Origin: a virus
Direction: 5' to 3' (one strand)
Virus genome (UHGV): UHGV-0065555
DNA length: 15,910 bases
Part shown: positions 2,606-15,910 of the stretch, in pieces
How positions within the stretch are numbered: position 1 is the first letter of the stretch
How the letters are laid out: every line of letters starts with the position of its first letter
Notes under the pieces: model-generated
Database searches by the model: none
What the model was told of the DNA's origin: nothing
Seen by the model: the letters and a program-made list of their open reading frames with translations, nothing else
Position numbers and translations under genes: made by a program

Positions 2606-3667
2606 TTAATGCTCTGCCGCCAAAGTGCCGCCATCATCAACTGTCACCGGTTTCTCCATTACGTATGCTGACCATTCAGGAGAATAGAATGGTTGCAAAA
2701 ATTTAGAAAATTGTTCTGTATCAAATTTAATTTCACCAATGTACAAGTAGTTATATATATTACTGTAGTTTTGAAGCTGAAATCCGTAAGCTAGTTTTAA
2801 TATCTTTTTAGATAGATAAAATGCAGCCTCAAGTGATTCGGCTAACATTGATTCTGTGGGGGTGAACGTTCTTATTTTAGTGCCGTTGATTTTTAACTCT
2901 ATATAGGCTATTGAGATACAATCTACGCATAAAGTATCTAATAATTTAGCTATGTTATATGAAATTGTATTTAATCTGGTAAGGTGATCTTCTGCATTTG
3001 AATGGGGTGTAACCTTATCTTTTGATAAGTTATTATTAATGGTATCTAGGATTGACAATATACTTTTTTTAAAGTTCTCGTCTGGTGAATAATTGGATGT
3101 GATATCCATTGACGATTCTGTATATATATTGGAATATAATAAGTATGGGTTTGAGATTTTAATTTCATGAGTTGTTAGTATTTTAATTTTGTTGCTATCA
3201 TTGTAATTATAATATTTTGATGCGTCATCTACAAAGCTTTGCATCGTAAAGCTTGATATTTCTTTAATTTTATCTACGAAATTTTTCTCATGAGCAAAAT
3301 GTCTATCGATTGCATTTTTGATTTCAGATGAATTAATTTGTGCTTCGGTTTGTATCGTTCTGTGAATGTTATTTACTATGGAAGCTAATGGTACAGAACT
3401 TGCGAGTATCAATAATGGGAATTTGCTTATCTCATAGAATCTGGCATATCCGTGAGCAGAAAGAACAGGTATTTTACCAAACCATGCAAATGCTCCAAAA
3501 TAAATGAATGACAGCAGTGGTACTGCAATTGAAATCCAAAATAATTTCTGTTGAAATAAATTTCTTTTATCGAGAATGTACCACTTTTTATATATTGATA
3601 CAAACGCAAAAAGAATAATTGCCAAAATATACACAATAATTCCAGTAAAGCTAGTATTAATGTTCAT
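2606..3667 (-). CDS. AT-rich predicted membrane protein (moron) between int and att; function unknown
   Basis: 353 aa; two to three N-terminal hydrophobic helices (FTGIIVYILAIILFAFVSIY, LFWISIAVPLLSFIYFGAFAWF) then an N/K/I/Y-rich soluble region. Very AT-rich versus neighbours. Its ATG overlaps the int stop (ATGA on the minus strand). Confidence 0.55.
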   Translation of the reverse strand: MNINTSFTGIIVYILAIILFAFVSIYKKWYILDKRNLFQQKLFWISIAVPLLSFIYFGAFAWFGKIPVLSAHGYARFYEISKFPLLILASSVPLASIVNNIHRTIQTEAQINSSEIKNAIDRHFAHEKNFVDKIKEISSFTMQSFVDDASKYYNYNDSNKIKILTTHEIKISNPYLLYSNIYTESSMDITSNYSPDENFKKSILSILDTINNNLSKDKVTPHSNAEDHLTRLNTISYNIAKLLDTLCVDCISIAYIELKINGTKIRTFTPTESMLAESLEAAFYLSKKILKLAYGFQLQNYSNIYNYLYIGEIKFDTEQFSKFLQPFYSPEWSAYVMEKPVTVDDGGTLAAEH

Positions 3668-7265: not shown

Positions 7266-8119
7266 GCACCATCCTGAAATGGGCGGGAAATAAAACCGCC
7301 ATTATGTCCGAACTGAAAAAGCATCTTCCTGCTGGCCCGCGACTGGTTGAACCTTTCGCGGGTTCCTGTGCAGTGATGATGGAGACGGAGTACCCCAGCT
7401 ATCTTGTTGCGGATATTAATCCTGATTTAATCAACCTCTATAAAAAGGTTGCTGCTGATTGTGAATCGTTTATATCTCGCGCCAGAGTTTTATTTGAGAT
7501 CGCAAACAGGGAGGTGGCTTATTACAACATAAGGCAGGAGTTTAATTACTCAACTGAAATTACTGATTTCATGAAAGCGGTATATTTCCTGTATCTCAAT
7601 CGTCACGGTTACCGTGGTTTATGTCGCTATAACAAGAGCGGGCATTTCAACATTCCCTACGGTAATTATAAAAATCCGTATTTCCCTGAAAAAGAAATTC
7701 GCGCATTTGCAGAAAAAGCCCAGCGAGCAACGTTTATCTGCGCCAGCTTTGATGAAACGCTGGCGATGTTGAAGGCAGGGGATGTGGTGTATTGCGATCC
7801 GCCGTATGACGGTACGTTTTCCGGCTATCACACTGATGGTTTCACTGAAGATGACCAGTATCACCTGGCATCCGTTCTTGAACATCGGTCATCAGAAGGA
7901 CATCCGGTCATTGTTTCTAACAGTGACACATCCCTGATCCGTTCGCTGTATCGCAATTTTACTCACCACTATATCAAGGTAAAACGCAGCATCGGTGTGG
8001 CAGCTGGCGAGGGTAAATCAGCAACAGAAATCATTGCTGTTTCCGGGCCGCGCTGCTGGGTGGGATTTGATTATTCGCGTGGCCTGGATAGTTCTGCCGT
8101 GTACGGAGTACGTGCATGA
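7262..8119 (+). CDS. dam: DNA N6-adenine methyltransferase, Dam/D12 class
   Basis: Start [11 protein letters not shown] at 7262 (ATGA overlap with the upstream gene). SAM-binding motif EPFAGSCAV and catalytic DPPY motif ([10 protein letters not shown]). Confidence 0.85.
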
Positions 8120-10530
8120 GCCATGCCGATATGAACAACTGCTGCGGCTTTAACGAGGCTGCCGCAGCGTTCTCATGGAACAGCCCGAAAAAGGCCATTA
8201 ACCCTTATCTGGACCCGGCGGAAGTTGCGCCGGTTTCTGCGCTTTCAAACCTGATCGCTCTGTACGCTGCCGATAACGAGCAGGAACACCTGCGCCGCGA
8301 GGCACTGAGTGATCAGGTCTGGGAGCGTTATTTCTTTAATGAATCCCGTGATCCTGTCCAGCGCGAAATGGAGCAGGATAAGCTCATTAGTCGGGCAAAG
8401 CTGGCGCATGAGCAGCAGCGTTTTAATCCAGATATGGTCATTCTGGCGGACGTCAATGCCCAGCCTTCCCATATCAGCAAGCCGCTGATGCAACGTATTG
8501 AATACTTCAGCAGCTTGGGCAGGCCAAAGGCTTATTCCCGCTATTTGCGTGAGACGATTAAGCCATGTTTGGAGCGACTGGAGCATGTACGCGACAGCCA
8601 GCTATCTGCATCTTTTCGTTTTATGGCAAGCCATGTAGGGCTGGACGACCTGCTGATTCTGCCTGAAATGAGTCAGGATCAGGTGAAACGCCTGTCTACT
8701 CTTGTCGCTGCGCATATGAGCATGTGTCTTGATGCCGCTTGTGGTGATTTGTACGCCACCGATGATGTTAAGCCAGAAGAAATCCGCAAGACATGGGAAA
8801 AGGTGGCAGCAGAAACCCTGCGACTGGATGTTATCCCGCCTGCGTTTGAGCAACTTCGTCGGAAAAGAAACCGCCGTAAACCCGTGCCCTATGAACTCAT
8901 TCCGGGTTCGCTGGCGCGTATGTTGTGCGCCGATTGGTGGTACCGGAAATTATGGAAGATGCGTTGCGAATGGCGGGAAGAGCAGTTGCGTGCTGTTTGC
9001 CTGGTCAGCAAAAAAGCATCTCCCTATGTCAGCTATGAAGCCGTGATGCATAAACGTGAGCAGCGCCGTAAGTCGCTGGAGTTTTTCCGTTCTCATGAAC
9101 TGGTGAACGAAGACGGCGACACGCTGGACATGGAGGATGTGGTAAACGCCAGCAGCAGCAACCCGGCGCATCGCCGCAATGAGATGATGGCCTGTGTTAA
9201 AGGTCTGGAGCTTATCGCAGAAATGCGCAGTGACTGTGCCGTTTTCTACACTATCACCTGTCCGTCGCGTTTCCATTCCACGCTCAATAACGGCAGACCA
9301 AACCCGACCTGGACAAACGCGACGGTAAGACAAAGCAGCGATTATCTGGTCGGCATGTTTGCTGCATTTCGTAAGGCTATGCACAAAGCCGGGTTGCGCT
9401 GGTATGGCGTGCGGGTGGCTGAACCGCATCATGACGGCACAGTTCACTGGCACCTGTTGTGTTTCATGCGCAAAAAAGACCGCCGCGCCATTACTGCATT
9501 GTTGCGTAAGTTTGCCATCCGTGAAGACCGCGAGGAGCTGGGCAATAACACGGGGCCACGCTTTAAGTCTGAGCTGATAAACCCGCGCAAAGGTACGCCA
9601 ACAAGCTACATCGCGAAATACATCAGTAAGAACATTGACGGGCGTGGTCTGGCTGGCGAGATCAGCAAGGAAACGGGTAAATCCCTGCGTGATAACGCTG
9701 AATACGTTAATGCCTGGGCGTCTCTGCATCGTGTTCAGCAATTCCGCTTCTTTGGCATTCCGGGGCGTCAGGCTTACCGTGAACTGCGATTGCTGGCTGG
9801 TCAGGCGGCAAGGCAACAGGGGGACAAAAAAGCAGGTGCGCCGGTACTGGATAACCCGCGCCTTGATGCAATCCTGGCTGCTGCTGATGCTGGTTGTTTT
9901 GCCACCTACATCATGAAGCAGGGCGGCGTACTGGTTCCCCGCAAATATCACCTCATCAGAACTGCTTATGAAATCAACGAAGAGCCGACCGCCTATGGCG
10001 ATCACGGTATTCGTATTTATGGCATCTGGTCACCCATTGCAGAGGGCAAGATCTGCACTCATGCGGTGAAGTGGAAAATGGTTCGTAAGGCCGTTGACGT
10101 TCAGGAGGCGGCAGCCGACCAGGGCGCTTGCGCCCCTTGGACTCGTGGCAATAACTGTCCCCTTGCTGAAAATTTGAACCAACAGGAGAAAGATAAATCA
10201 GCTGATGGGGACCCCAGAACGGACATTACCCGCATGGATGACAAGGTGTTGCACGATTACCTGCACAGTATGAACAAAAAGGAGCGCCGGGAATTGGCTG
10301 CAAGGTTACGTCTGGTGAAACCGAAACGGCGTAGAGACTACAAACAGCGAATTACAGACCATCAACGACAGCAGCTCGTCTATGAACTGAAATCCAGAGG
10401 ATTTGATGGCAGCGAGAAAGAGGTCGATTTACTCCTTCGCGGCGGCAGTATTCCGTCAGGAGCAGGCCTGCGTATCTTCTATCGGAACCAGCGTTTGCAG
10501 GAAGATGATAAGTGGCGGAACCTGTATTAA
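8116..10530 (+). CDS. A: Replication initiation endonuclease gpA (rolling-circle HUH nuclease)
   Basis: 804 aa; tandem-tyrosine motif YIAKYISK and histidine-rich H-x-H region (HHDGTVHWH); start overlaps the dam stop (ATGA). Size and position match P2/186 gene A. Confidence 0.85.
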
Positions 10531-10624
10531 TTACGCTGGTTAACAATTCGTGCTCTTAATAATATCAGGCATATCAGGCTGATAAGCGTAAAAAAAAACG
10601 TTTTACATCAGTAAGATTATTATA

Positions 10625-10644
10625 TACTGTAAATATAAACAGTG
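10625..10644 (+). promoter_or_regulatory. LexA (SOS) box overlapping a candidate -10 element
   Basis: TACTGTAAATATAAACAGTG fits CTGT-N8-ACAG with an AT-rich spacer; lies about 40 bp upstream of the ATG at 10686; a TTTACA -35-like hexamer sits upstream. Confidence 0.6.
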
Positions 10645-10685
10645 GTTATACATACAGTATTGCGTGTGGTGTCATAGGAGGAAAG

Positions 10686-10874
10686 ATGCAGGACTATTTT
10701 TTGGAGTCTTTGAAGCTCCAGCGCATTGATTTTTTTCTTAAGCTTGTAGCGGCTAGTGAGTGCGATGATGAAGAGAAGCGGCTTGCTATCCAGTGGGTTT
10801 CGGAGCTGACCGATGAGTTAATGGCGAAAATCCGTACTCATGAGTACAACCGTTCAATGGATCTCCCCGGTTAG
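10686..10874 (+). CDS. Small acidic protein under the putative LexA-controlled promoter
   Basis: 62 aa; AGGAGG RBS 4 nt before the ATG; followed by an imperfect hairpin at 10891-10923. Confidence 0.45.
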   Translation: MQDYFLESLKLQRIDFFLKLVAASECDDEEKRLAIQWVSELTDELMAKIRTHEYNRSMDLPG

Positions 10875-11459
10875 GCTTAGAAACGTTGCTGGCGTTAGGA
10901 CTTGATTCTGACGCTAGCAAGGTTGATCAACGAGCCATGCGAGGCGTTAGTCATGGGCAAAAAAATAGTAACTTCCAGATTTTGCTTCGTGCCAGGTATT
11001 GAGTAGTTTTATCGCCAGAGGGGCTGTTAGCGCTCAAACTACTAATGGAGCCACACCTTAGATGAGTGATTTGGCTTAAGCTATGATTATATAGTTTCGC
11101 TGTACGGCGGCCTTGCTTTTTATTGAAGCGACCAGACTGGAACAACGGCGAAAGGAGACTAACGATACGCACCAGTTTTTTGAAAAGGTACAGTTATCTA
11201 GATTGGTTGCCAATTTTCGTTGAAACCTGACATACCATTAGGTCATTGCTTTAGAAAAATTAATACTTGATGTGAGAATTGCTTCAAAACATCTAGAATT
11301 AAAGTTTCTTTACTAGTATGCTTCATCACTTGGTCGTTGGGTTGAGTGCAAAAGCTAAGGCTGATGCCCAGTACGCTATCCGCATTATTGCCAGAGAACC
11401 GATTCGAAACCGGAATCTGGCAGAGCATGGGCGCAAGTGCTGGCTTCCCAACGGCCTCG

Positions 11460-12428
11460 TTATTTATAATATGCTGACTTCAAAACCACTCGTCTTTCAA
11501 CCTGCTGTGATAGCATTACCGCGTTAGTCCAATCTTTTGGATACCTTATTTCTTCTATAACACGAATATAAGCACATACTTTATTTTTTCCCTCTCCTTT
11601 GGCATAAGTAACCTCTAGATTATTAAATTTCAATAAGTGCTCTCTTCTTTGGTAAGTAAAACAGCCGTAATCACGGACATCAGAAGAAGTAATAGCATGA
11701 GTTGAAGGAAACCGAACTAGTAAATTTCTCAAGTAGGGAATAATGTCCAAACTCGTTGCTTTGTTTTCTTCTCTGCGACTCTTTCTGAACATATGTCTCC
11801 AACCCAGCCGTGTAAGCTCGATTTTCCCAAGCACCGGAGATGTGATTTCTTTCTGTTCAGAATAACGTTTTTTAACAAACGCTCGCCGATTATTAAGTAG
11901 TGAGTTTCTTCTTCTTACATGGATTCCTTTTGCTCCAGTTTCACCTGCACGTACCATGGACATACAGCGAGCCAGGTCAAACCGTGTGGCCGGAGTGATT
12001 AAGTGATATTCTCCATAAGTTTGGTTTTTAAGGGTAGTGTTTGGATGTATATAGGCCCAAAATGCTTTACGATTAGTTCTGTCAACCCAAACGACACATA
12101 TATGGTGAGTTGTCCTTTTGGCTGCTTTTTTTGCGGCCGAATTTAATACAAAACCTTTCTCTAATAAATGACCATAAGTTGCCCCTGATTTAACTTGCGA
12201 TAATATAAGCATTCTTTCTTTTGATGCCCATGGATGTTCGAAGGATAATATTAAATCTATTTTTGAATTGTCGTCTTCCCTGGAACCCCAGTGCCCCTCT
12301 CCTCTACAAGCAAGAATGAATTGACTCATTGCATAAGATTCGGCGTCACTGCCGTTAACTGAGTTAAACTGTCTTGTTTCTAGCACAGTTGGTATTGGTC
12401 GTGATGCAAGTAAACTGAAAGATCCCAC
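11460..12428 (-). CDS. AT-rich cargo protein of unknown function, possible PD-(D/E)xK-like nuclease fold
   Basis: 322 aa; GTG start at 12428 with a GGAGAG RBS 8 nt upstream (first in-frame ATG would be at about 12329). Strongly AT-rich relative to phage core genes. N-terminal segment KIDLILSFEHPW...LILSQVK could be a degenerate D...(E/Q)xK motif, which is speculative. Basic C-terminal region. Confidence 0.55.
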   Translation of the reverse strand: MGSFSLLASRPIPTVLETRQFNSVNGSDAESYAMSQFILACRGEGHWGSREDDNSKIDLILSFEHPWASKERMLILSQVKSGATYGHLLEKGFVLNSAAKKAAKRTTHHICVVWVDRTNRKAFWAYIHPNTTLKNQTYGEYHLITPATRFDLARCMSMVRAGETGAKGIHVRRRNSLLNNRRAFVKKRYSEQKEITSPVLGKIELTRLGWRHMFRKSRREENKATSLDIIPYLRNLLVRFPSTHAITSSDVRDYGCFTYQRREHLLKFNNLEVTYAKGEGKNKVCAYIRVIEEIRYPKDWTNAVMLSQQVERRVVLKSAYYK

Positions 12429-12501
12429 TTATAGTTCTCTCCAAAAAATTGCATAATCTTGAACGCTAAAAAATAGTATACAAACTAAAGTATTTTTTCA
12501 T

Positions 12502-12720
12502 TTAATTCAATGTATTGGCTAAAATTAAGACATTTATAGCTATATGTACTAGATAACATAGCGTTGTTTTCCTTTTGAAATCTCTTCTTGTGGTAACACA
12601 ACAGTATTTACTCAAGTAGTTTGTCACTGCATGGGGAGATTTTGCTATGTCCGCGGCATCATACAGATGCGATAGATTTTCAGCATGACCTTGGGTAGCA
12701 AATCTGTAGGTATCATCCAT
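12502..12720 (-). CDS. Small hypothetical protein upstream of the 322-aa gene
   Basis: 72 aa; ATG at 12720 with a GAGGTG RBS 2-3 nt upstream; no recognisable motif; may be spurious. Confidence 0.3.
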   Translation of the reverse strand: MDDTYRFATQGHAENLSHLYDAADIAKSPHAVTNYLSKYCCVTTRRDFKRKTTLCYLVHIAINVLILANTLN

Positions 12721-12860
12721 TGCACCTCAAAGTAACTCTGGTGCATACCTATGCTGCATGAAAATGAATGATCGCTAGTGGATCGTTTAAGTCGAAGCCT
12801 GCCAGTTCTGACGAGCTTTTGCTTATGTTATGCAACTGCATGAAAACCACTACACAAAGC

Positions 12861-12890
12861 GGGCAGGCGTGGCGGGGATACGAGCGCGCG
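12861..12890. other. Candidate cos (cohesive-end) site of the prophage
   Basis: GGCGTGGCGGGGATACGAGCGCGCGCT at 12867 resembles the P2/186 cohesive-end region as I recall it (P2 GGCGAGGCGGGGAAAGCAC, 186 GGCGTGGCGGGGAAAGCAT); it lies between A and Q where cos is expected. Match is partial and from memory. Confidence 0.35.
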
Positions 12891-13036
12891 CTAAGTCATA
12901 TAAGAGTTATATATTGATTTGATTGCTGGACATGCATACAGTATCGCTCTATCATCTAATAAATCTTAGAGTATTTGGCAATGTTTGGATAAAATGGAAC
13001 CTAACTTATTCATAATCCGCTAAACAGGGATGTCAG

Positions 13037-13951
13037 ATGCCATACCAATTGGTAGAGCTTAGCCCCGTAGCTAACGATCTTGAACAGTTAGGAACCAAAG
13101 AGAAGTTTTGGTTCTATTTCTCCGATGACACTGTAAATTTGCAGTTGTTTAAGTACTCTAGGCCAGGTACTGGCGAGCATTGGTCTGAAAAGTGTGCTGC
13201 TGAGTTATGTCATTTGCTTAACATTCCACATGCTAGCTATGATTTGGCGCGATACAATGGTCGATTCGGTGTGGTGACTCAGAATATCATTCCATCTGGT
13301 TTCCGGATGGTAATGGGAAATGAAGTGCTTCACAGTTCGACATTCGATTATCCTGGGCCTTTACAAGCCGGGGAAAAGCCGGTAAGGGTCAGAGAACACA
13401 CTGTCACAAGGGTATTGGGTTGTTTGGATAGGGAATCTATCAAGCCTCCTCCGAGTGTATATGATCTAACCGGGCTAAATGCAGCAGATGTATTTTGTGG
13501 ATATTTGATGCTCGATGCACTTGTGAGTAATCAAGATCGCCATCATGAAAATTGGGCGATCATGCTTAACAATGAAACTGGTGAGCAGTTTTTGTGTCCA
13601 ACATACGATCATGCCGCTAGTTTAGGAAGGGAGATGTTAGATGATGAGCGTAACGAACGGCTTAATACTAAAGATAAAAATCGACAAATCCCATGTTTTG
13701 TAAGAAAAGCTCGCTCTGAGCTATTCAAAGCAAAAACTGATAAAAAGCCCTTGCTGACCGTTGAAGCATTTCAACATGCAGTTGAAGGGAGAGTTGCCGC
13801 TCGCGACCATTGGTTAGGTAAGTTGAGCGTTTTAACAGAAGATTCCATTACAGATGTGTTTAACCAAGTGCCTTCATCGTGTATATCCGACAGTGCACGT
13901 AGATTTGCAACGTTAATGGTAATGGAAAATCGCAGAAGGTTACTAGAATGA
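13037..13951 (+). CDS. HipA-family Ser/Thr kinase, core kinase domain only (HipT-like)
   Basis: 304 aa. Gly-rich/ATP loop LGTKEKF (HipA ..AGAQEK..); catalytic loop LVSNQDRHHENWAIM (HipA ..GATDGHAKNFSV..); Mg-binding CPTYD (HipA ..TPFYD..). Lacks the HipA N-subdomain. AGGGA RBS. Confidence 0.8.
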   Translation: MPYQLVELSPVANDLEQLGTKEKFWFYFSDDTVNLQLFKYSRPGTGEHWSEKCAAELCHLLNIPHASYDLARYNGRFGVVTQNIIPSGFRMVMGNEVLHSSTFDYPGPLQAGEKPVRVREHTVTRVLGCLDRESIKPPPSVYDLTGLNAADVFCGYLMLDALVSNQDRHHENWAIMLNNETGEQFLCPTYDHAASLGREMLDDERNERLNTKDKNRQIPCFVRKARSELFKAKTDKKPLLTVEAFQHAVEGRVAARDHWLGKLSVLTEDSITDVFNQVPSSCISDSARRFATLMVMENRRRLLE

Positions 13952-14688
13952 CTAATACAAACTCCGTTTACGTCGCATGGCAGGCACCAGATACCAGAGA
14001 CTGGCATGTTGTTGGTAACTTGCAAGAGCGCAAATCGGGGTATGTTTTCAGGTATACCAAAGGTGCTCTTAAATCTACTAAATTTACAAAGTTTAGCGGC
14101 ATGAGTGATGTTCGTGAAACTTATGTTTCGGAAGAATTGTTTCCTCTTTTTAAAAATCGCCTTTTATCACCGAGACGTCCAGAGTATCCGAGTTTCATTA
14201 AATGGCTTGGATTTGAAGAAGATAAGGTAAATCCTATCGATATTCTTGCTCGCTCGGGAGGCTTACGAAGCACTGATCAGCTGCAGATTTTCAAAAAAAT
14301 TGATGTTGATTCTGATGGTAACTTTGAGCATTTTTTCTTCTTACATGGACTTGGTTACTTAAATAGCTTAGCTAATGCTCGTGTATCTGAATTGAAACCG
14401 GGGCAAATTTTGCGTCTTTGCTTGGATCTTCAAAATGAATACGATGGGGATGCTGTTGTCGTTCGTGCAGATAAACCAGCTGAAATCGTTGGTTACTGCC
14501 CTAGGTATTTAAGTAATGATATCAAGAAGATGTTATTGGATGATCCAAAATCAATCACTTTAACGGTCGAAAAGATTAGCGATGATGCTCCTCATAACTA
14601 TCGGTTATTATGTAAATTATCAGGAGTACTAAGCCAAGCCTGTCAATCGACGCTGATTCCTCAGGATGAGTTTGAACCTATTGAGTAA
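13948..14688 (+). CDS. HipA N-subdomain-like (HipS-like) protein fused to a C-terminal HIRAN domain
   Basis: 246 aa; ATG overlaps the kinase stop (ATGA). N-terminal part aligns by eye to HipA residues about 10-100 (VGNLQERKSGYVFRY vs VGELTKLANGAHTFKY; LFPLFKNRLLSPRRPE vs FNFFDNLLPDSP; DILARSGG vs DLLSEIGRD). C-terminal part GQILRLCLDLQNEYDGDAVVVRADKPAEIVGYCPRYLSNDIKKMLL fits the HIRAN consensus. Confidence 0.7.
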   Translation: MTNTNSVYVAWQAPDTRDWHVVGNLQERKSGYVFRYTKGALKSTKFTKFSGMSDVRETYVSEELFPLFKNRLLSPRRPEYPSFIKWLGFEEDKVNPIDILARSGGLRSTDQLQIFKKIDVDSDGNFEHFFFLHGLGYLNSLANARVSELKPGQILRLCLDLQNEYDGDAVVVRADKPAEIVGYCPRYLSNDIKKMLLDDPKSITLTVEKISDDAPHNYRLLCKLSGVLSQACQSTLIPQDEFEPIE

Positions 14689-14694
14689 ATGAAG

Positions 14695-14718
14695 AAAAGC
14701 CACCAAACGGTGGCTTTT
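14695..14718. terminator. Bidirectional rho-independent terminator shared by the convergent HipS-HIRAN gene and Q
   Basis: aaaaGCCACCaaacGGTGGCtttt: perfect 6-bp GC stem flanked by an A-run and a T-run. Confidence 0.65.
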
Positions 14719-14722
14719 CTTA

Positions 14723-15760
14723 TTATGGGACTATATCTAGCGAGTAGGTATTAAACTGTATCGCCTCCTTGCCAAGCCAATCATTCATCTCCTGTAATCG
14801 CTTTTGTAGTGGCATTAGCTCATTTCGGACGAATACACGGCTTGCCTTTTCCACATCCCCAAACCCCCCAACATTATTCGGCATAATCCCCATCATTTGC
14901 GGCGGCACGCGGTGCGCTGCCATCATGTCATCCCGACTCACGTTCTTGATGTTAAGAAATTCATCCTTCGCCGCGACTTCTGACAATGGGATGATCTGAA
15001 GCCCGTCTTTTTTGCCGTTAGGTGAGTACATAAACAGGTTGCGGAAGTTGCCTGGACCTTTGGCGCTTTTCATCGCGTTGCGGAGGTTGTTCACATCCTC
15101 CTGATTCTGCGCGGCATCGGTCATGTACATGATGAAGCCTGCATGGCTGCCGTTAATGTAATACTTACGGCGGAACAACGTGGCGGACTCGTTGAGCAGG
15201 GCTGACGGAATGGCAGAAAGATAACCGGGCAGGCCGTAGATCTCCTGGTTGATATCCGGTTCCATCAGATGAAAGATGCTGCCTTTCGTGAACTGATACG
15301 GCTGCGTAGTCATGCCGTATTGCACAAACCAGTAGGTATCCAGGTCTAACCCGCGTCGGGTGTATTTTGCCAGAGCAGGCTCAAGGGCGATAACTTCACC
15401 GAAGCGGTTCGTGCGTTTCTCCAGGTAGGCGTTACCAAATACCAGATAGTCCTGCACAAAACGTGAAAAAGCCTGCTGGCTGAGCAGCGGGTGGGGGATG
15501 TAGGTACTGGTCAGAATGTTGCATTTCACCGCAATTGGTGAACTGTGATGCACGGCGGCGCGGAAGGTGCGCGCCAGTCCGTCAAAGCTTACTGGCGGCT
15601 CATACCAGCGATCTGTCTGTACGCATTCCACATAGTCCAGTAGTTCGCGGCGGTCCAGAACAGGAACGGGATCACCGAAGCTGAATGCTTCGGCTGTAGT
15701 TTGACTTTTATGCTGGATCTGGTTCGTCGACGCAGCGCGGTTCTTCTTACTCTTTCCCAT
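14723..15760 (-). CDS. Q: Portal (capsid vertex) protein gpQ
   Basis: About 345 aa on the minus strand next to the cos region, as for P2 Q; real ATG at 15758-15760 (the ORF-track start at 15763 is TTG); start overlaps the stop of the upstream terminase gene. Confidence 0.8.
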   Translation of the reverse strand: MGKSKKNRAASTNQIQHKSQTTAEAFSFGDPVPVLDRRELLDYVECVQTDRWYEPPVSFDGLARTFRAAVHHSSPIAVKCNILTSTYIPHPLLSQQAFSRFVQDYLVFGNAYLEKRTNRFGEVIALEPALAKYTRRGLDLDTYWFVQYGMTTQPYQFTKGSIFHLMEPDINQEIYGLPGYLSAIPSALLNESATLFRRKYYINGSHAGFIMYMTDAAQNQEDVNNLRNAMKSAKGPGNFRNLFMYSPNGKKDGLQIIPLSEVAAKDEFLNIKNVSRDDMMAAHRVPPQMMGIMPNNVGGFGDVEKASRVFVRNELMPLQKRLQEMNDWLGKEAIQFNTYSLDIVP

Positions 15761-15910
15761 CAAAAAATCTCCACAATATTACTGGTATTGGCGGACTCGC
15801 CCTGCAGTGGTTCGTTAAACAGTGCGTGCATTGTTGCCCAGGCCAGATCGGCGTGGCTGGCTTCTTCGCTGCGGCTGGCTTCATAGGTTGGGCGGTTGCC
15901 ACTGGCGGTG
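15760..15910 (-). CDS. P: Terminase ATPase subunit gpP, 3' end only (5' end outside the window)
   Basis: Minus-strand frame open from the window edge to a TGA at 15760-15762 that overlaps the Q start (TGATG). Call rests on the conserved P-Q order of P2-like phages. Confidence 0.5.
   Translation of the reverse strand, partial: TASGNRPTYEASRSEEASHADLAWATMHALFNEPLQGESANTSNIVEIF

What the first reader, a model, noticed from the sequence alone, without database searches (positions are those of the whole stretch)
11460..12720. AT-rich 322-aa orphan protein at the tin/old-equivalent cargo position
Seen in sequence: a minus-strand gene with much lower GC than the flanking phage genes, its own RBS, and possibly a small upstream ORF, sitting between gene A and the candidate cos. 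Established knowledge: P2 carries its tin and old exclusion genes at this position, and P2-like prophages are known to swap diverse defence systems here. Inference: this is a horizontally acquired single-gene (or two-gene) exclusion or defence candidate; I could not assign it to any family, and the nuclease-like motif is weak.
Basis: partly seen in the sequence, partly recalled or inferred. Interest (0 to 1): 0.7.

Follow-up and report, generated by a model that had tools for sequence, protein, structure and literature searches.

The report
Prophage nuclease gene with partner RNA
The "orphan" gene in this P2/186-like E. coli prophage encodes a nuclease related to the killing domain of the SPARDA immune system, and it always travels with a previously undescribed, conserved, folded small-RNA gene on the opposite strand, so it looks like a two-part toxin/RNA defence module rather than a lone gene.

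Summary
The ORF is real (11460-12428, minus strand, 322 aa from GTG, GC 0.39 against about 0.52-0.53 in the flanks). It sits in the known gpA-gpQ cargo hotspot of a P2/186-like E. coli prophage. It is not an orphan: 179 homologues were found across five bacterial phyla. The N-terminal half is a DREN/DUF4365 PD-(D/E)xK nuclease with invariant D58, Q78 and K80, the catalytic triad of the SPARDA effector. The C-terminal half is a strongly conserved LPD3-like alpha+beta domain of unknown function.

The 72-aa upstream ORF is not conserved anywhere and is probably not a gene. The real partner lies on the other side. A roughly 120-nt element directly after the stop codon (11332-11456) recurs once per locus in the related loci examined. 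It has six helices, 23 of 37 pairs show compensatory changes, and it has no Rfam match. Wobble statistics, positioned promoters and fold energies say it is read from the opposite strand, convergent with the gene.

The best reading is a nuclease toxin restrained or controlled by a structured small RNA, carried as anti-phage cargo. The anatomy is shown; the function is inferred. No phenotype data exist. Identity with the validated Divona system could not be tested.

The parts
11460..12428 (-). Gene for a 322-aa two-domain protein (GTG start; the stop codon is included). RefSeq annotates it as a 289-aa hypothetical protein, WP_024187696.1.
   Evidence: ORF list. 179 homologues, mostly 320-326 aa at 99% coverage. 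45 invariant columns in a 40-sequence alignment. AlphaFold2 model with mean pLDDT 89.9.
11934..12428 (-). N-terminal DREN/DUF4365 PD-(D/E)xK nuclease domain (about residues 1-165). Catalytic candidates are D58, Q78 and K80, plus E30.
11463..11915 (-). C-terminal LPD3-like alpha+beta domain (about residues 172-322). It carries a conserved polar set: W210, R211, H212, R215, R218, S226, E292, Y320 and K322.
12437..12442 (-). Shine-Dalgarno sequence GGAGAG, ending 8 nt upstream of the GTG start.
   Evidence: Read directly from the sequence.
11332..11456 (+). Conserved structured small-RNA gene, convergent with the nuclease gene. Its far end lies 4 nt from the stop codon. It has helices P1, P2, P2c, P3, P3b and P4. 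GC is 0.545 inside cargo of GC 0.39.
   Evidence: Covariance model R1 gives exactly one hit per locus, always directly after the homologue's stop. There are 32 hits in 364 kb searched on both strands; the window hit is 11334-11454, 89.4 bits, E 3e-20. The model finds nothing in sister prophages that lack the gene. Covariation: 84.5% of cells are paired against 26-39% for slid controls, 23 of 37 pairs show compensatory changes, and 0 of 500 shuffles reach the observed score. Strand: 56 A.C against 11 G.U in gene-sense orientation. The plus strand folds at -53.5 kcal/mol (z -3.58), the minus strand at -47.6 (z -2.87). No Rfam match at E<=1 and no tRNA.
11272..11299 (+). Candidate sigma-70 promoter for the small RNA in this copy (GTGAGA-16-TAGAAT). 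The match is weak.
   Evidence: Consensus scan, 9 of 12 positions matched; the number of hits in the region is not above chance. In other loci a TTGnnn-17-TnnAAT promoter lies with its -10 box 4-12 nt upstream of the element. This holds in 8 of 24 loci under a strict rule, against 2-3 at other offsets and a mean of 2.1 (maximum 7) in shuffles.
10951..12732 (.). Cargo block absent from sister prophages. It contains the nuclease gene, the RNA gene and unassigned flanks.
   Evidence: blastn break points against L002-L004. The block is found in 4 of 5426 E. coli genomes.

Best explanation
The locus is a two-part module.

Part 1 is a 322-aa protein. Its N-terminal half is a DREN/DUF4365 PD-(D/E)xK nuclease with an intact D58/Q78/K80 catalytic triad. 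Its C-terminal half is a highly conserved, basic, LPD3-like alpha+beta domain.

Part 2 is a structured small RNA of about 120 nt. It is transcribed from its own promoter on the opposite strand, convergent with the nuclease gene, and ends next to the gene's stop codon.

The pair moves as a unit between defence islands, chromids and plasmids. Here it sits in the gpA-gpQ cargo hotspot of a P2/186-like prophage.

Proposed mechanism (inferred): the nuclease is a toxic, non-specific effector that needs oligomerisation to act, as SPARDA's DREN domain does. The small RNA keeps it in check, either by binding the conserved C-terminal domain, or by pairing with the complementary 3' end of the nuclease mRNA, or both. 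Infection by another phage disturbs this balance and releases nuclease activity, which aborts the infection.

Shown: the gene, the domain homology, the catalytic residues, the RNA structure, its strict linkage to the gene, its strand, and the cargo status. Inferred: toxicity, the RNA acting as an inhibitor, and the anti-phage role.
For: Protein:
- Homologues and invariant residues.
- DUF4365 membership through relatives and through the PDB profile hit to DREN-APAZ.
- Fold matches to SPARDA and to I-Ssp6803I.
- DREN is a collateral DNase activated by tetramerisation, with a D/Q/K triad (PMC12205087).
- A DUF4365 toxin, EAT16, kills E. coli, and mutants in its DxGxD...QxK motif lose toxicity (PMC11297309).

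RNA:
- One hit per locus, always directly 3' of the gene.
- Covariation.
- Antisense strand: 56 A.C against 11 G.U, which means 92% standard pairs if read on the other strand against 84.5% in gene sense.
- Positioned promoters.
- The antisense fold is more stable in the window and in 11 of 12 divergent loci, including subfamilies only about 20% identical.
- No conserved small ORF lies in the element.
- In IMG/VR the same 5 contigs hold both the gene and the RNA motif.
- The DNA shared with the closest relative is exactly the ORF plus the element.

Context:
- The hotspot position.
- Rarity and turnover of the cargo.
- Defence-island neighbours.
- No conserved protein partner.
Against: - There are no expression or phenotype data. 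PADLOC, PHROGs, NCBIfam and Pfam give no above-threshold hit for the window protein itself.
- The promoter for the RNA in the window copy is weak and lies further upstream than in most loci.
- The RNA's direction rests on statistics, not on transcript mapping.
- Nothing shows that the RNA binds the protein or inhibits it. It could equally be an activator.
- The C-terminal domain has no informative structural relative.
- The protein family is absent from 50,697 deposited phage genomes. In IMG/VR it occurs only in this one prophage lineage, so it is not a typical phage gene.
Confidence: 0.5

Rival explanations
1. The RNA is a positive cofactor. The protein and the structured RNA form a ribonucleoprotein in which the RNA is needed for sensing or for assembly of the active nuclease oligomer, as a scaffold or guide-like role, rather than acting as an antitoxin.
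For: The 12-nt core motifs of the RNA are more conserved than the coding DNA, and the C-terminal domain with its invariant basic residues is co-conserved with it. DREN nucleases are known to be controlled by RNA-loaded partners in SPARDA. The linkage extends across the whole superfamily.
Against: No variable guide-like segment is evident. The variable parts are helices that covary. No complementarity to other parts of the locus was found. The convergent, mRNA-complementary layout is typical of RNA antitoxins.
Confidence: 0.2
2. It is a plain addiction module: a type I-like toxin-antitoxin pair that only stabilises the mobile DNA carrying it and has no anti-phage role.
For: The convergent small RNA is complementary to the 3' end of the toxin mRNA. 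The pair is found on chromids and plasmids and next to integrases and transposases.
Against: Its placement is in a hotspot where tested cargo is often defensive. Neighbours are mostly defence systems. Deep conservation of RNA structure across phyla is unusual for simple antisense antitoxins.
Confidence: 0.12
3. It is a single-gene nuclease defence protein. The downstream element is only a transcription terminator or mRNA-end stabiliser with no specific partnership with the protein.
For: The closing stem P1 is followed by a U-rich stretch on the antisense side: T fraction 0.43 against 0.29 on the sense side. Divona is a validated single-gene DUF4365 system.
Against: Six helices with conserved internal loops, kept from about 100% down to about 20% protein identity, are far more than a terminator needs. 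The positioned promoters point to an independent transcript.
Confidence: 0.1
4. The element acts as folded single-stranded DNA, a recombination or transposition hairpin. The nuclease would then be a homing or mobility enzyme for a selfish gene-plus-hairpin unit.
Against: No target-site duplications or repeated copies are seen; there is one copy per locus. The polarity is opposite to attC sites (GTTGGG...CCCAAC), and the outer stem sequence is not conserved. The promoters positioned at the element's start fit an RNA gene. In this prophage the exchange happened at the hotspot flanks, not at the element's ends.
Confidence: 0.06

Closest known systems
[quoted passage not shown]
   Same: The N-terminal DUF4365/DREN PD-(D/E)xK nuclease domain is homologous (profile E 9e-9; Foldseek E 1.4e-7). 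It has the same D...QxK triad (D58/Q78/K80 against D41/Q60/K62). Both resemble I-Ssp6803I.
   Different: There is no Argonaute gene. The C-terminal part is a 150-aa LPD3-like domain rather than APAZ, in a protein of 322 aa against about 390-470 aa. The partner is a dedicated structured small RNA rather than guide RNAs loaded into pAgo.
Divona (single-gene anti-phage cassette of the Vibrio cholerae chromosomal integron; bioRxiv 10.1101/2024.07.02.601686)
   Same: It is a single protein with an N-terminal DUF4365 nuclease domain fused to an unusual C-terminal domain. It is reported in E. coli within 20 kb of integrases, as is the case here.
   Different: Its C-terminal domain is described as crr6-like (PF08847), which none of the 35 C-terminal domains scanned here matches. 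No V. cholerae protein appears among the 120 best relatives of the Vibrio member. No RNA partner is described for Divona. A direct sequence comparison was not possible.
Type I toxin-antitoxin pairs with convergent, 3'-overlapping antisense RNAs (for example txpA/RatA, bsrG/SR4, par of pAD1; from my own knowledge) and the DNase toxin pair RalR/RalA
   Same: The small RNA gene is convergent with the toxin gene and complementary to the end of its transcript. The toxin is a nuclease, as in RalR.
   Different: The toxin is a 322-aa two-domain enzyme, not a small peptide. The RNA has a deeply conserved multi-helix fold with conserved loops, which suggests protein recognition.
Type III toxin-antitoxin/abortive infection systems (ToxIN, AbiF-like; from my own knowledge)
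   Same: The proposed logic is the same: a structured RNA neutralises a nuclease and phage infection releases it.
   Different: The RNA is single-copy, not a tandem repeat array. It lies downstream and on the opposite strand, not upstream in the same operon. The toxin is a PD-(D/E)xK enzyme, not a ToxN-type RNase.
EAT16, a DUF4365 toxin of an extracellular contractile injection system (PMC11297309)
   Same: It has a DUF4365 N-terminal domain whose conserved D and QxK residues are required for killing E. coli.
   Different: It is delivered by an injection machine, has a different C-terminal part and has no RNA partner.
P2 old and tin
   Same: Same genomic slot, between gpA and the portal gene next to cos. 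The exclusion function there is established.
   Different: No sequence or domain relationship.

Membership tests
DUF4365 / DREN nuclease domain (PF14280) | Significant profile match to the family | tested here: met
   The window protein alone gives no Pfam hit. However, 19 of 40 close and 59 of 101 extended relatives match, best E 6.8e-23. The family profile also hits DREN-APAZ chains at E 9e-9 to 2e-6.
DUF4365 / DREN nuclease domain (PF14280) | Catalytic D ... QxK residues | tested here: met
   D58, Q78 and K80 are invariant in 40 sequences and kept in 96-97 of 101 extended members. They align with the D and QVK residues of the SPARDA chains.
DUF4365 / DREN nuclease domain (PF14280) | PD-(D/E)xK fold resembling I-Ssp6803I | tested here: met
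SPARDA system | Adjacent short Argonaute (MID-PIWI) gene | tested here: not met
   The ORFs of at least 60 aa between gpA and the portal gene were scanned and none is Argonaute-like. No conserved protein neighbour exists in 15 related loci. Piwi is not among the 25 commonest Pfam families found in the neighbours.
SPARDA system | APAZ domain C-terminal to DREN | tested here: not met
   The C-terminal part is 150 aa and LPD3-like. The profile match to DREN-APAZ covers only residues about 4-133. The overall TM-score is about 0.32.
Divona | N-terminal DUF4365 nuclease domain in a single-gene system | tested here: met
   No conserved protein partner.
Divona | crr6-like (PF08847) C-terminal domain | tested here: not met
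   No PF08847 match among 35 C-terminal domains at E<=10 or among 101 extended members at E<=1e-3. HMMER is less sensitive than the HHpred search used by the authors.
Divona | Sequence homology to the V. cholerae N16961 cassette protein | not testable with these tools
   The sequence is not in the paper text or the held supplement, and the genome record is not in the collections. No V. cholerae-named cluster and no cluster with a contig of chromosome-2 size appears among close relatives.
LPD3 (PF18798) | Profile match above the gathering score | tested here: inconclusive
   The window protein scores 14.5-15.8 bits against a cut-off of 27. 27 of 35 close C-terminal domains match at E<=10, best 2.1e-6. 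The match covers only profile positions 11-62 of 114.
Integron attC site | 5'-RYYYAAC ... GTTRRRY-3' inverted core sites (they read the same on either strand) | tested here: not met
   The element reads GTTGGG ... CCCAAC, the opposite polarity, in one clade. The outer stem has unrelated sequences in other clades, for example GAGAGCT/AGCTCTC and an 18-bp stem in L037.
Type III toxin-antitoxin | Tandem-repeat RNA antitoxin upstream of the toxin gene on the same strand | tested here: not met
   There is a single copy per locus, downstream and on the opposite strand.
Type I toxin-antitoxin (3'-overlap class) | Convergent antisense RNA complementary to the toxin transcript | tested here: inconclusive
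   The geometry and strand fit. Overlap requires the mRNA to read through the element, which was not shown. No pairing to the 5' region was found.
Type I toxin-antitoxin (3'-overlap class) | Small hydrophobic peptide toxin | tested here: not met
   The toxin candidate is a 322-aa soluble two-domain nuclease.
Known defence systems in PADLOC-DB v2.0.0 | HMM match to any component | tested here: not met
   No hit at E<=0.1 for the 322-aa or the 72-aa product. The neighbours 13037-14688 match PDC-M03A/B.
Rfam RNA families | Covariance-model match | tested here: not met
   No match at E<=1 in 10400-13200 and none at gathering score in the whole window.

The most novel reading that the evidence does not exclude
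A pAgo-independent counterpart of SPARDA. A dedicated, structured small RNA of about 120 nt is bound by the conserved LPD3-like domain and governs oligomerisation-dependent firing of a DREN collateral nuclease. This would be a new class of RNA-protein immune or toxin module, spread across at least five bacterial phyla, together with a new RNA family.
Probability: 0.3. Interest if true: 0.85.

Novelty: new variant of a known kind. Interest (0 to 1): 0.72.

Why it matters
DREN nucleases are so far known as effectors that depend on Argonaute filaments. This is a compact, stand-alone DREN protein whose only conserved partner is a structured RNA. If the pairing is functional, it adds a new way of controlling a collateral nuclease, a new RNA family absent from Rfam, and a new cargo type for the P2 hotspot. 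A 1.1-kb module with an RNA switch would also be easy to test and possibly to engineer. The finding also shows that protein-only defence annotation (PADLOC, PGAP) can miss both the correct start codon and an RNA component.

Tried and rejected
- **The 72-aa upstream ORF as partner.** It has no homologue in the related loci fetched by then (L001-L020). It lies outside the conserved DNA unit and is not annotated. Rejected.
- **A small protein encoded in the element.** ORFs overlapping the element range from 0 to 69 aa with no consistency. Rejected.
- **attC recombination site.** The polarity is wrong and the outer stem is not conserved. Rejected.
- **tRNA or a known RNA family.** None found.
- **Trans-antisense pairing of the RNA with the ribosome-binding region of the gene.** Duplex z-scores ran from -1.8 to +2.0 in 16 loci. 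Rejected.
- **Sense-strand 3'-UTR element** (my first reading). Disfavoured by 56 A.C against 11 G.U, by fold energies and by the antisense promoters.
- **Searches that were uninformative or failed.**
  - A PDB sequence search with the close-family profile found nothing. Only the extended profile reached SPARDA.
  - The afdb50 fold library was unavailable.
  - Attempts to obtain the Divona sequence failed.
  - A cluster look-up of 10 distant representatives gave only unnamed singletons.
  - RNAalifold on plain MAFFT alignments recovered only the central helix. The full structure needed model-based realignment.
Full report
**Setting**

The window is the left part of a P2/186-like E. coli prophage. 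From left to right it carries:
- a host autotransporter gene (78-2315);
- a low-GC 353-aa ORF (2606-3667);
- an integrase and a 186-type CI repressor;
- CII, Fil, a DksA-like zinc finger and a Dam methylase;
- replication protein gpA (8116-10530);
- about 4.2 kb of cargo;
- the portal gene (14723-15763, minus strand).

The window is 100% identical over the query stretch 10531-14722 to E. coli 442/2 and to one other genome, NZ_OY754392.1. The gpA-gpQ interval next to cos is the hotspot where P2 carries old and tin. Rousset et al. counted 1,650 gene arrangements there (PMC9122126).

**The observation**

- The ORF 11460-12428 (minus strand) is 322 aa from a GTG start. A GGAGAG sequence ends 8 nt upstream.
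- GC is 0.391 and GC3 is 0.297, against 0.530 for gpA and 0.519 for the portal gene.
- RefSeq calls only 289 aa from an internal ATG. Homologues align from about residue 5, and the invariant residues N22, N25, G26 and E30 precede that ATG. The longer reading is therefore right.
- The 72-aa ORF at 12502-12720 has no counterpart in the related loci fetched by then (L001-L020). It lies outside the DNA shared with the closest relative. I treat it as spurious.

**Cargo status**

Compared with sister prophages that have the same flanks, the block 10951-12732 is an insertion or replacement.
- One relative has nothing there.
- Another has an ASCH gene plus a restriction endonuclease.
- Another has a 176-aa gene.
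- All three keep a DinI-like gene that this prophage lacks.

Only 4 of 5426 complete E. coli genomes hold the block. No deposited phage genome encodes a relative of the protein. In IMG/VR only five contigs do, all 100% identical to the window. Four chromids or plasmids (Pantoea, Tritonibacter, Cupriavidus) carry relatives at 52-55% identity.

**The protein is not an orphan**

A search of 5.8 billion proteins gave 179 hits, most of them 320-326 aa and covering 99% of the query. They come from Gamma-, Beta- and Alphaproteobacteria, Bacteroidota and Cyanobacteria. A 40-sequence alignment has 45 invariant columns.

*N-terminal half*
- The window protein itself misses every Pfam, PADLOC, NCBIfam and PHROG threshold.
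- PF14280 (DUF4365) matches 19 of 40 close relatives and 59 of 101 extended relatives, best E 6.8e-23.
- A profile of the extended family hits the solved SPARDA DREN-APAZ chains at E 9e-9 to 2e-6, over residues about 4-133.
- D58, Q78 and K80 correspond to the SPARDA catalytic residues D41, Q60 and K62.
- SPARDA's DREN domain is a collateral DNase that works only as a tetramer, and it too resembles I-Ssp6803I (PMC12205087).
- A DUF4365 toxin from an injection system kills E. coli through the same motif (PMC11297309).

*C-terminal half (residues about 172-322)*
- It matches Pfam LPD3 weakly. LPD3 is a domain of unknown function from polyvalent proteins (PMC5512222).
- Its polar set W210, R211, H212, R215, R218, S226, E292, Y320 and K322 is kept in 69-94% of an extended family that is only 15-45% identical overall.
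- Among 1.84 billion representatives the domain occurs in only 139 proteins, almost always behind a domain of about 165 aa. Rare exceptions are fused to CHAT or EAD8 domains.

**Neighbours**

There is no conserved protein partner. Neighbours include Gabija, Dnd/Pbe, Lamassu LmuB, HepT/MNT, integrases and transposases. For distant subfamilies they include SIR2-HerA, an Mrr-like gene and GmrSD. One distant member sits between the portal and terminase genes of another phage. In the window the adjacent genes 13037-14688 are the PADLOC candidate system PDC-M03, a HipA-like kinase plus a HIRAN protein.

**The unexpected part: a conserved RNA gene**

While testing small ORFs, I found a stretch just after the stop codon that is conserved in loci whose proteins are only 50-66% identical.
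- A covariance model built from 15 copies finds exactly one hit per locus, always directly 3' of the homologue. There are 32 hits in 364 kb searched on both strands. The model finds none in sister prophages without the gene and none elsewhere in the window.
- The window copy is 11334-11454 (89.4 bits, E 3e-20). Its closing stem extends the element to 11332-11456.
- The structure has an outer stem P1 of 6-18 bp with unrelated sequences in different clades. Inside are a conserved helix P2, helices P2c and P3, a variable hairpin P3b and an optional hairpin P4.
- On 16 sequences and 37 pairs, 84.5% of cells pair, against 26-39% when partners are slid. 23 pairs show compensatory changes, and none of 500 shuffles reaches the observed score.
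- The element is absent from Rfam, is not a tRNA and holds no conserved ORF.
- Divergent loci, including subfamilies about 20% identical, also carry an element of about 90-150 nt closed by a long stem at the same place.
- In IMG/VR the same five contigs carry both the gene and the RNA motif.
- The DNA shared with the closest relative (79% identity) spans exactly the ORF plus the element.

**Which strand folds**

Four lines of evidence point to the strand opposite the gene (the plus strand in the window).
- Read in gene sense, the non-Watson-Crick cells are 56 A.C, 11 G.U and 34 others. On the other strand the A.C cells become G.U wobbles, giving 92% standard pairs against 84.5%.
- The plus strand of the window folds at -53.5 kcal/mol (z -3.58), the minus strand at -47.6 (z -2.87). 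The antisense fold is also the more stable in 11 of 12 divergent loci.
- Sigma-70-like promoters (TTGnnn-17-TnnAAT) lie on that strand with the -10 box 4-12 nt before the element. This holds in 8 of 24 loci under a strict rule, against 2-3 at other offsets and a mean of 2.1 (maximum 7) in 200 shuffles. By eye most loci of the main class have one.
- The sequence after the element is more U-rich on that strand, 0.43 against 0.29. This is partly confounded by the lysine and stop codons of the gene.

The element is therefore most likely an independent small-RNA gene, convergent with the nuclease gene. In the window copy itself the promoter is weak: GTGAGA-16-TAGAAT at 11272-11299.

**Mechanism**

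Shown:
- an intact DREN nuclease fused to a conserved basic domain;
- a structured RNA strictly linked to it;
- mobile cargo in a defence hotspot.

Inferred:
- the nuclease is a toxic collateral effector that needs oligomerisation;
- the RNA controls it, either by binding the C-terminal domain or by pairing with the complementary 3' end of the mRNA;
- infection releases the nuclease.

The RNA shows no pairing to the 5' region of the gene. Four rivals remain open:
- the RNA is an activator or scaffold rather than an inhibitor;
- the pair is a pure addiction module with no anti-phage role;
- the element is merely a terminator;
- the element is a DNA hairpin for mobility.

An attC site is excluded by its polarity and by the variable outer stem.

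**Comparison with known systems**

The module works most like a toxin plus RNA antitoxin, and its effector is that of SPARDA. It is a member of none of the following.
- **SPARDA:** there is no Argonaute gene and no APAZ domain.
- **Type III toxin-antitoxin systems:** the RNA is not a repeat array and does not lie upstream on the same strand.
- **Type I toxin-antitoxin systems:** the toxin is not a small peptide.

Divona is a validated single-gene DUF4365 system from the Vibrio cholerae integron, also reported in E. coli near integrases. It is the closest named system. Its described crr6-like C-terminal domain is not detected here, and no V. cholerae protein appears among close relatives. I could not obtain its sequence, so identity remains open.

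**Verdict**

The gene is real and is cargo. It is a DREN-family nuclease with a new architecture, and it comes with an undescribed structured RNA partner. The anatomy is well supported; the function is inferred.

Noticed in passing
window 13037-13951 (+) and 13948-14688 (+): The neighbouring cargo is a complete PADLOC candidate system, PDC-M03: a HipA-like kinase (E 2e-122) and a HIRAN-domain protein (E 3e-93). It is shared by many related prophages. The hotspot therefore holds two stacked modules.
   Followed up: partly
window 2606-3667 (-): A very AT-rich (GC 0.31) 353-aa ORF lies between the host autotransporter gene and the prophage integrase. It matches only phrog_17460 (unknown function) and has no Pfam or PADLOC hit. 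It is a second cargo candidate at the attachment-site end.
   Followed up: partly
window 10866-10950 compared with L002 2853-3086: Sister prophages carry a DinI-like gene right after the 62-aa phrog_698 gene. It is missing here. The 460 bp at 10875-11333 between the 62-aa gene and the RNA gene have no assigned function.
   Followed up: partly
window 11460-12428 (RefSeq WP_024187696.1): PGAP starts the gene at an internal ATG, giving 289 aa. This cuts off 33 residues that include four invariant positions.
   Followed up: yes
window 12768-12917 (+): A 49-aa ORF upstream of the HipA-like gene is kept at 71-76% amino-acid identity in sister prophages L002-L004. It may be a small gene or a leader belonging to PDC-M03, or it may reflect only conserved DNA.
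   Followed up: no
proteins P0239 and P0229 (distant relatives): Rare relatives fuse the C-terminal domain module to a CHAT protease domain (552 aa) or to an effector-associated domain, EAD8 (424 aa). This hints that the LPD3-like domain can serve other effectors or signalling adaptors.
   Followed up: partly
L060 2501-3430; L062 2501-3421: One distant subfamily member overlaps the end of a SIR2-HerA pair and precedes an Mrr-like gene. Another sits between the portal and large terminase genes of an unrelated phage, again in a packaging-proximal cargo slot.
   Followed up: no
L016 and L020 (Nodosilinea sp. LEGE 06152): The same gene-plus-RNA module, with identical neighbours, appears on two contigs of one cyanobacterial assembly. 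This is either a duplication or an assembly redundancy.
   Followed up: no
window 11334-11454: The RNA element is a GC island (0.545) inside cargo of GC 0.39. This is a simple cue that could flag such RNA genes in AT-rich cargo.
   Followed up: yes
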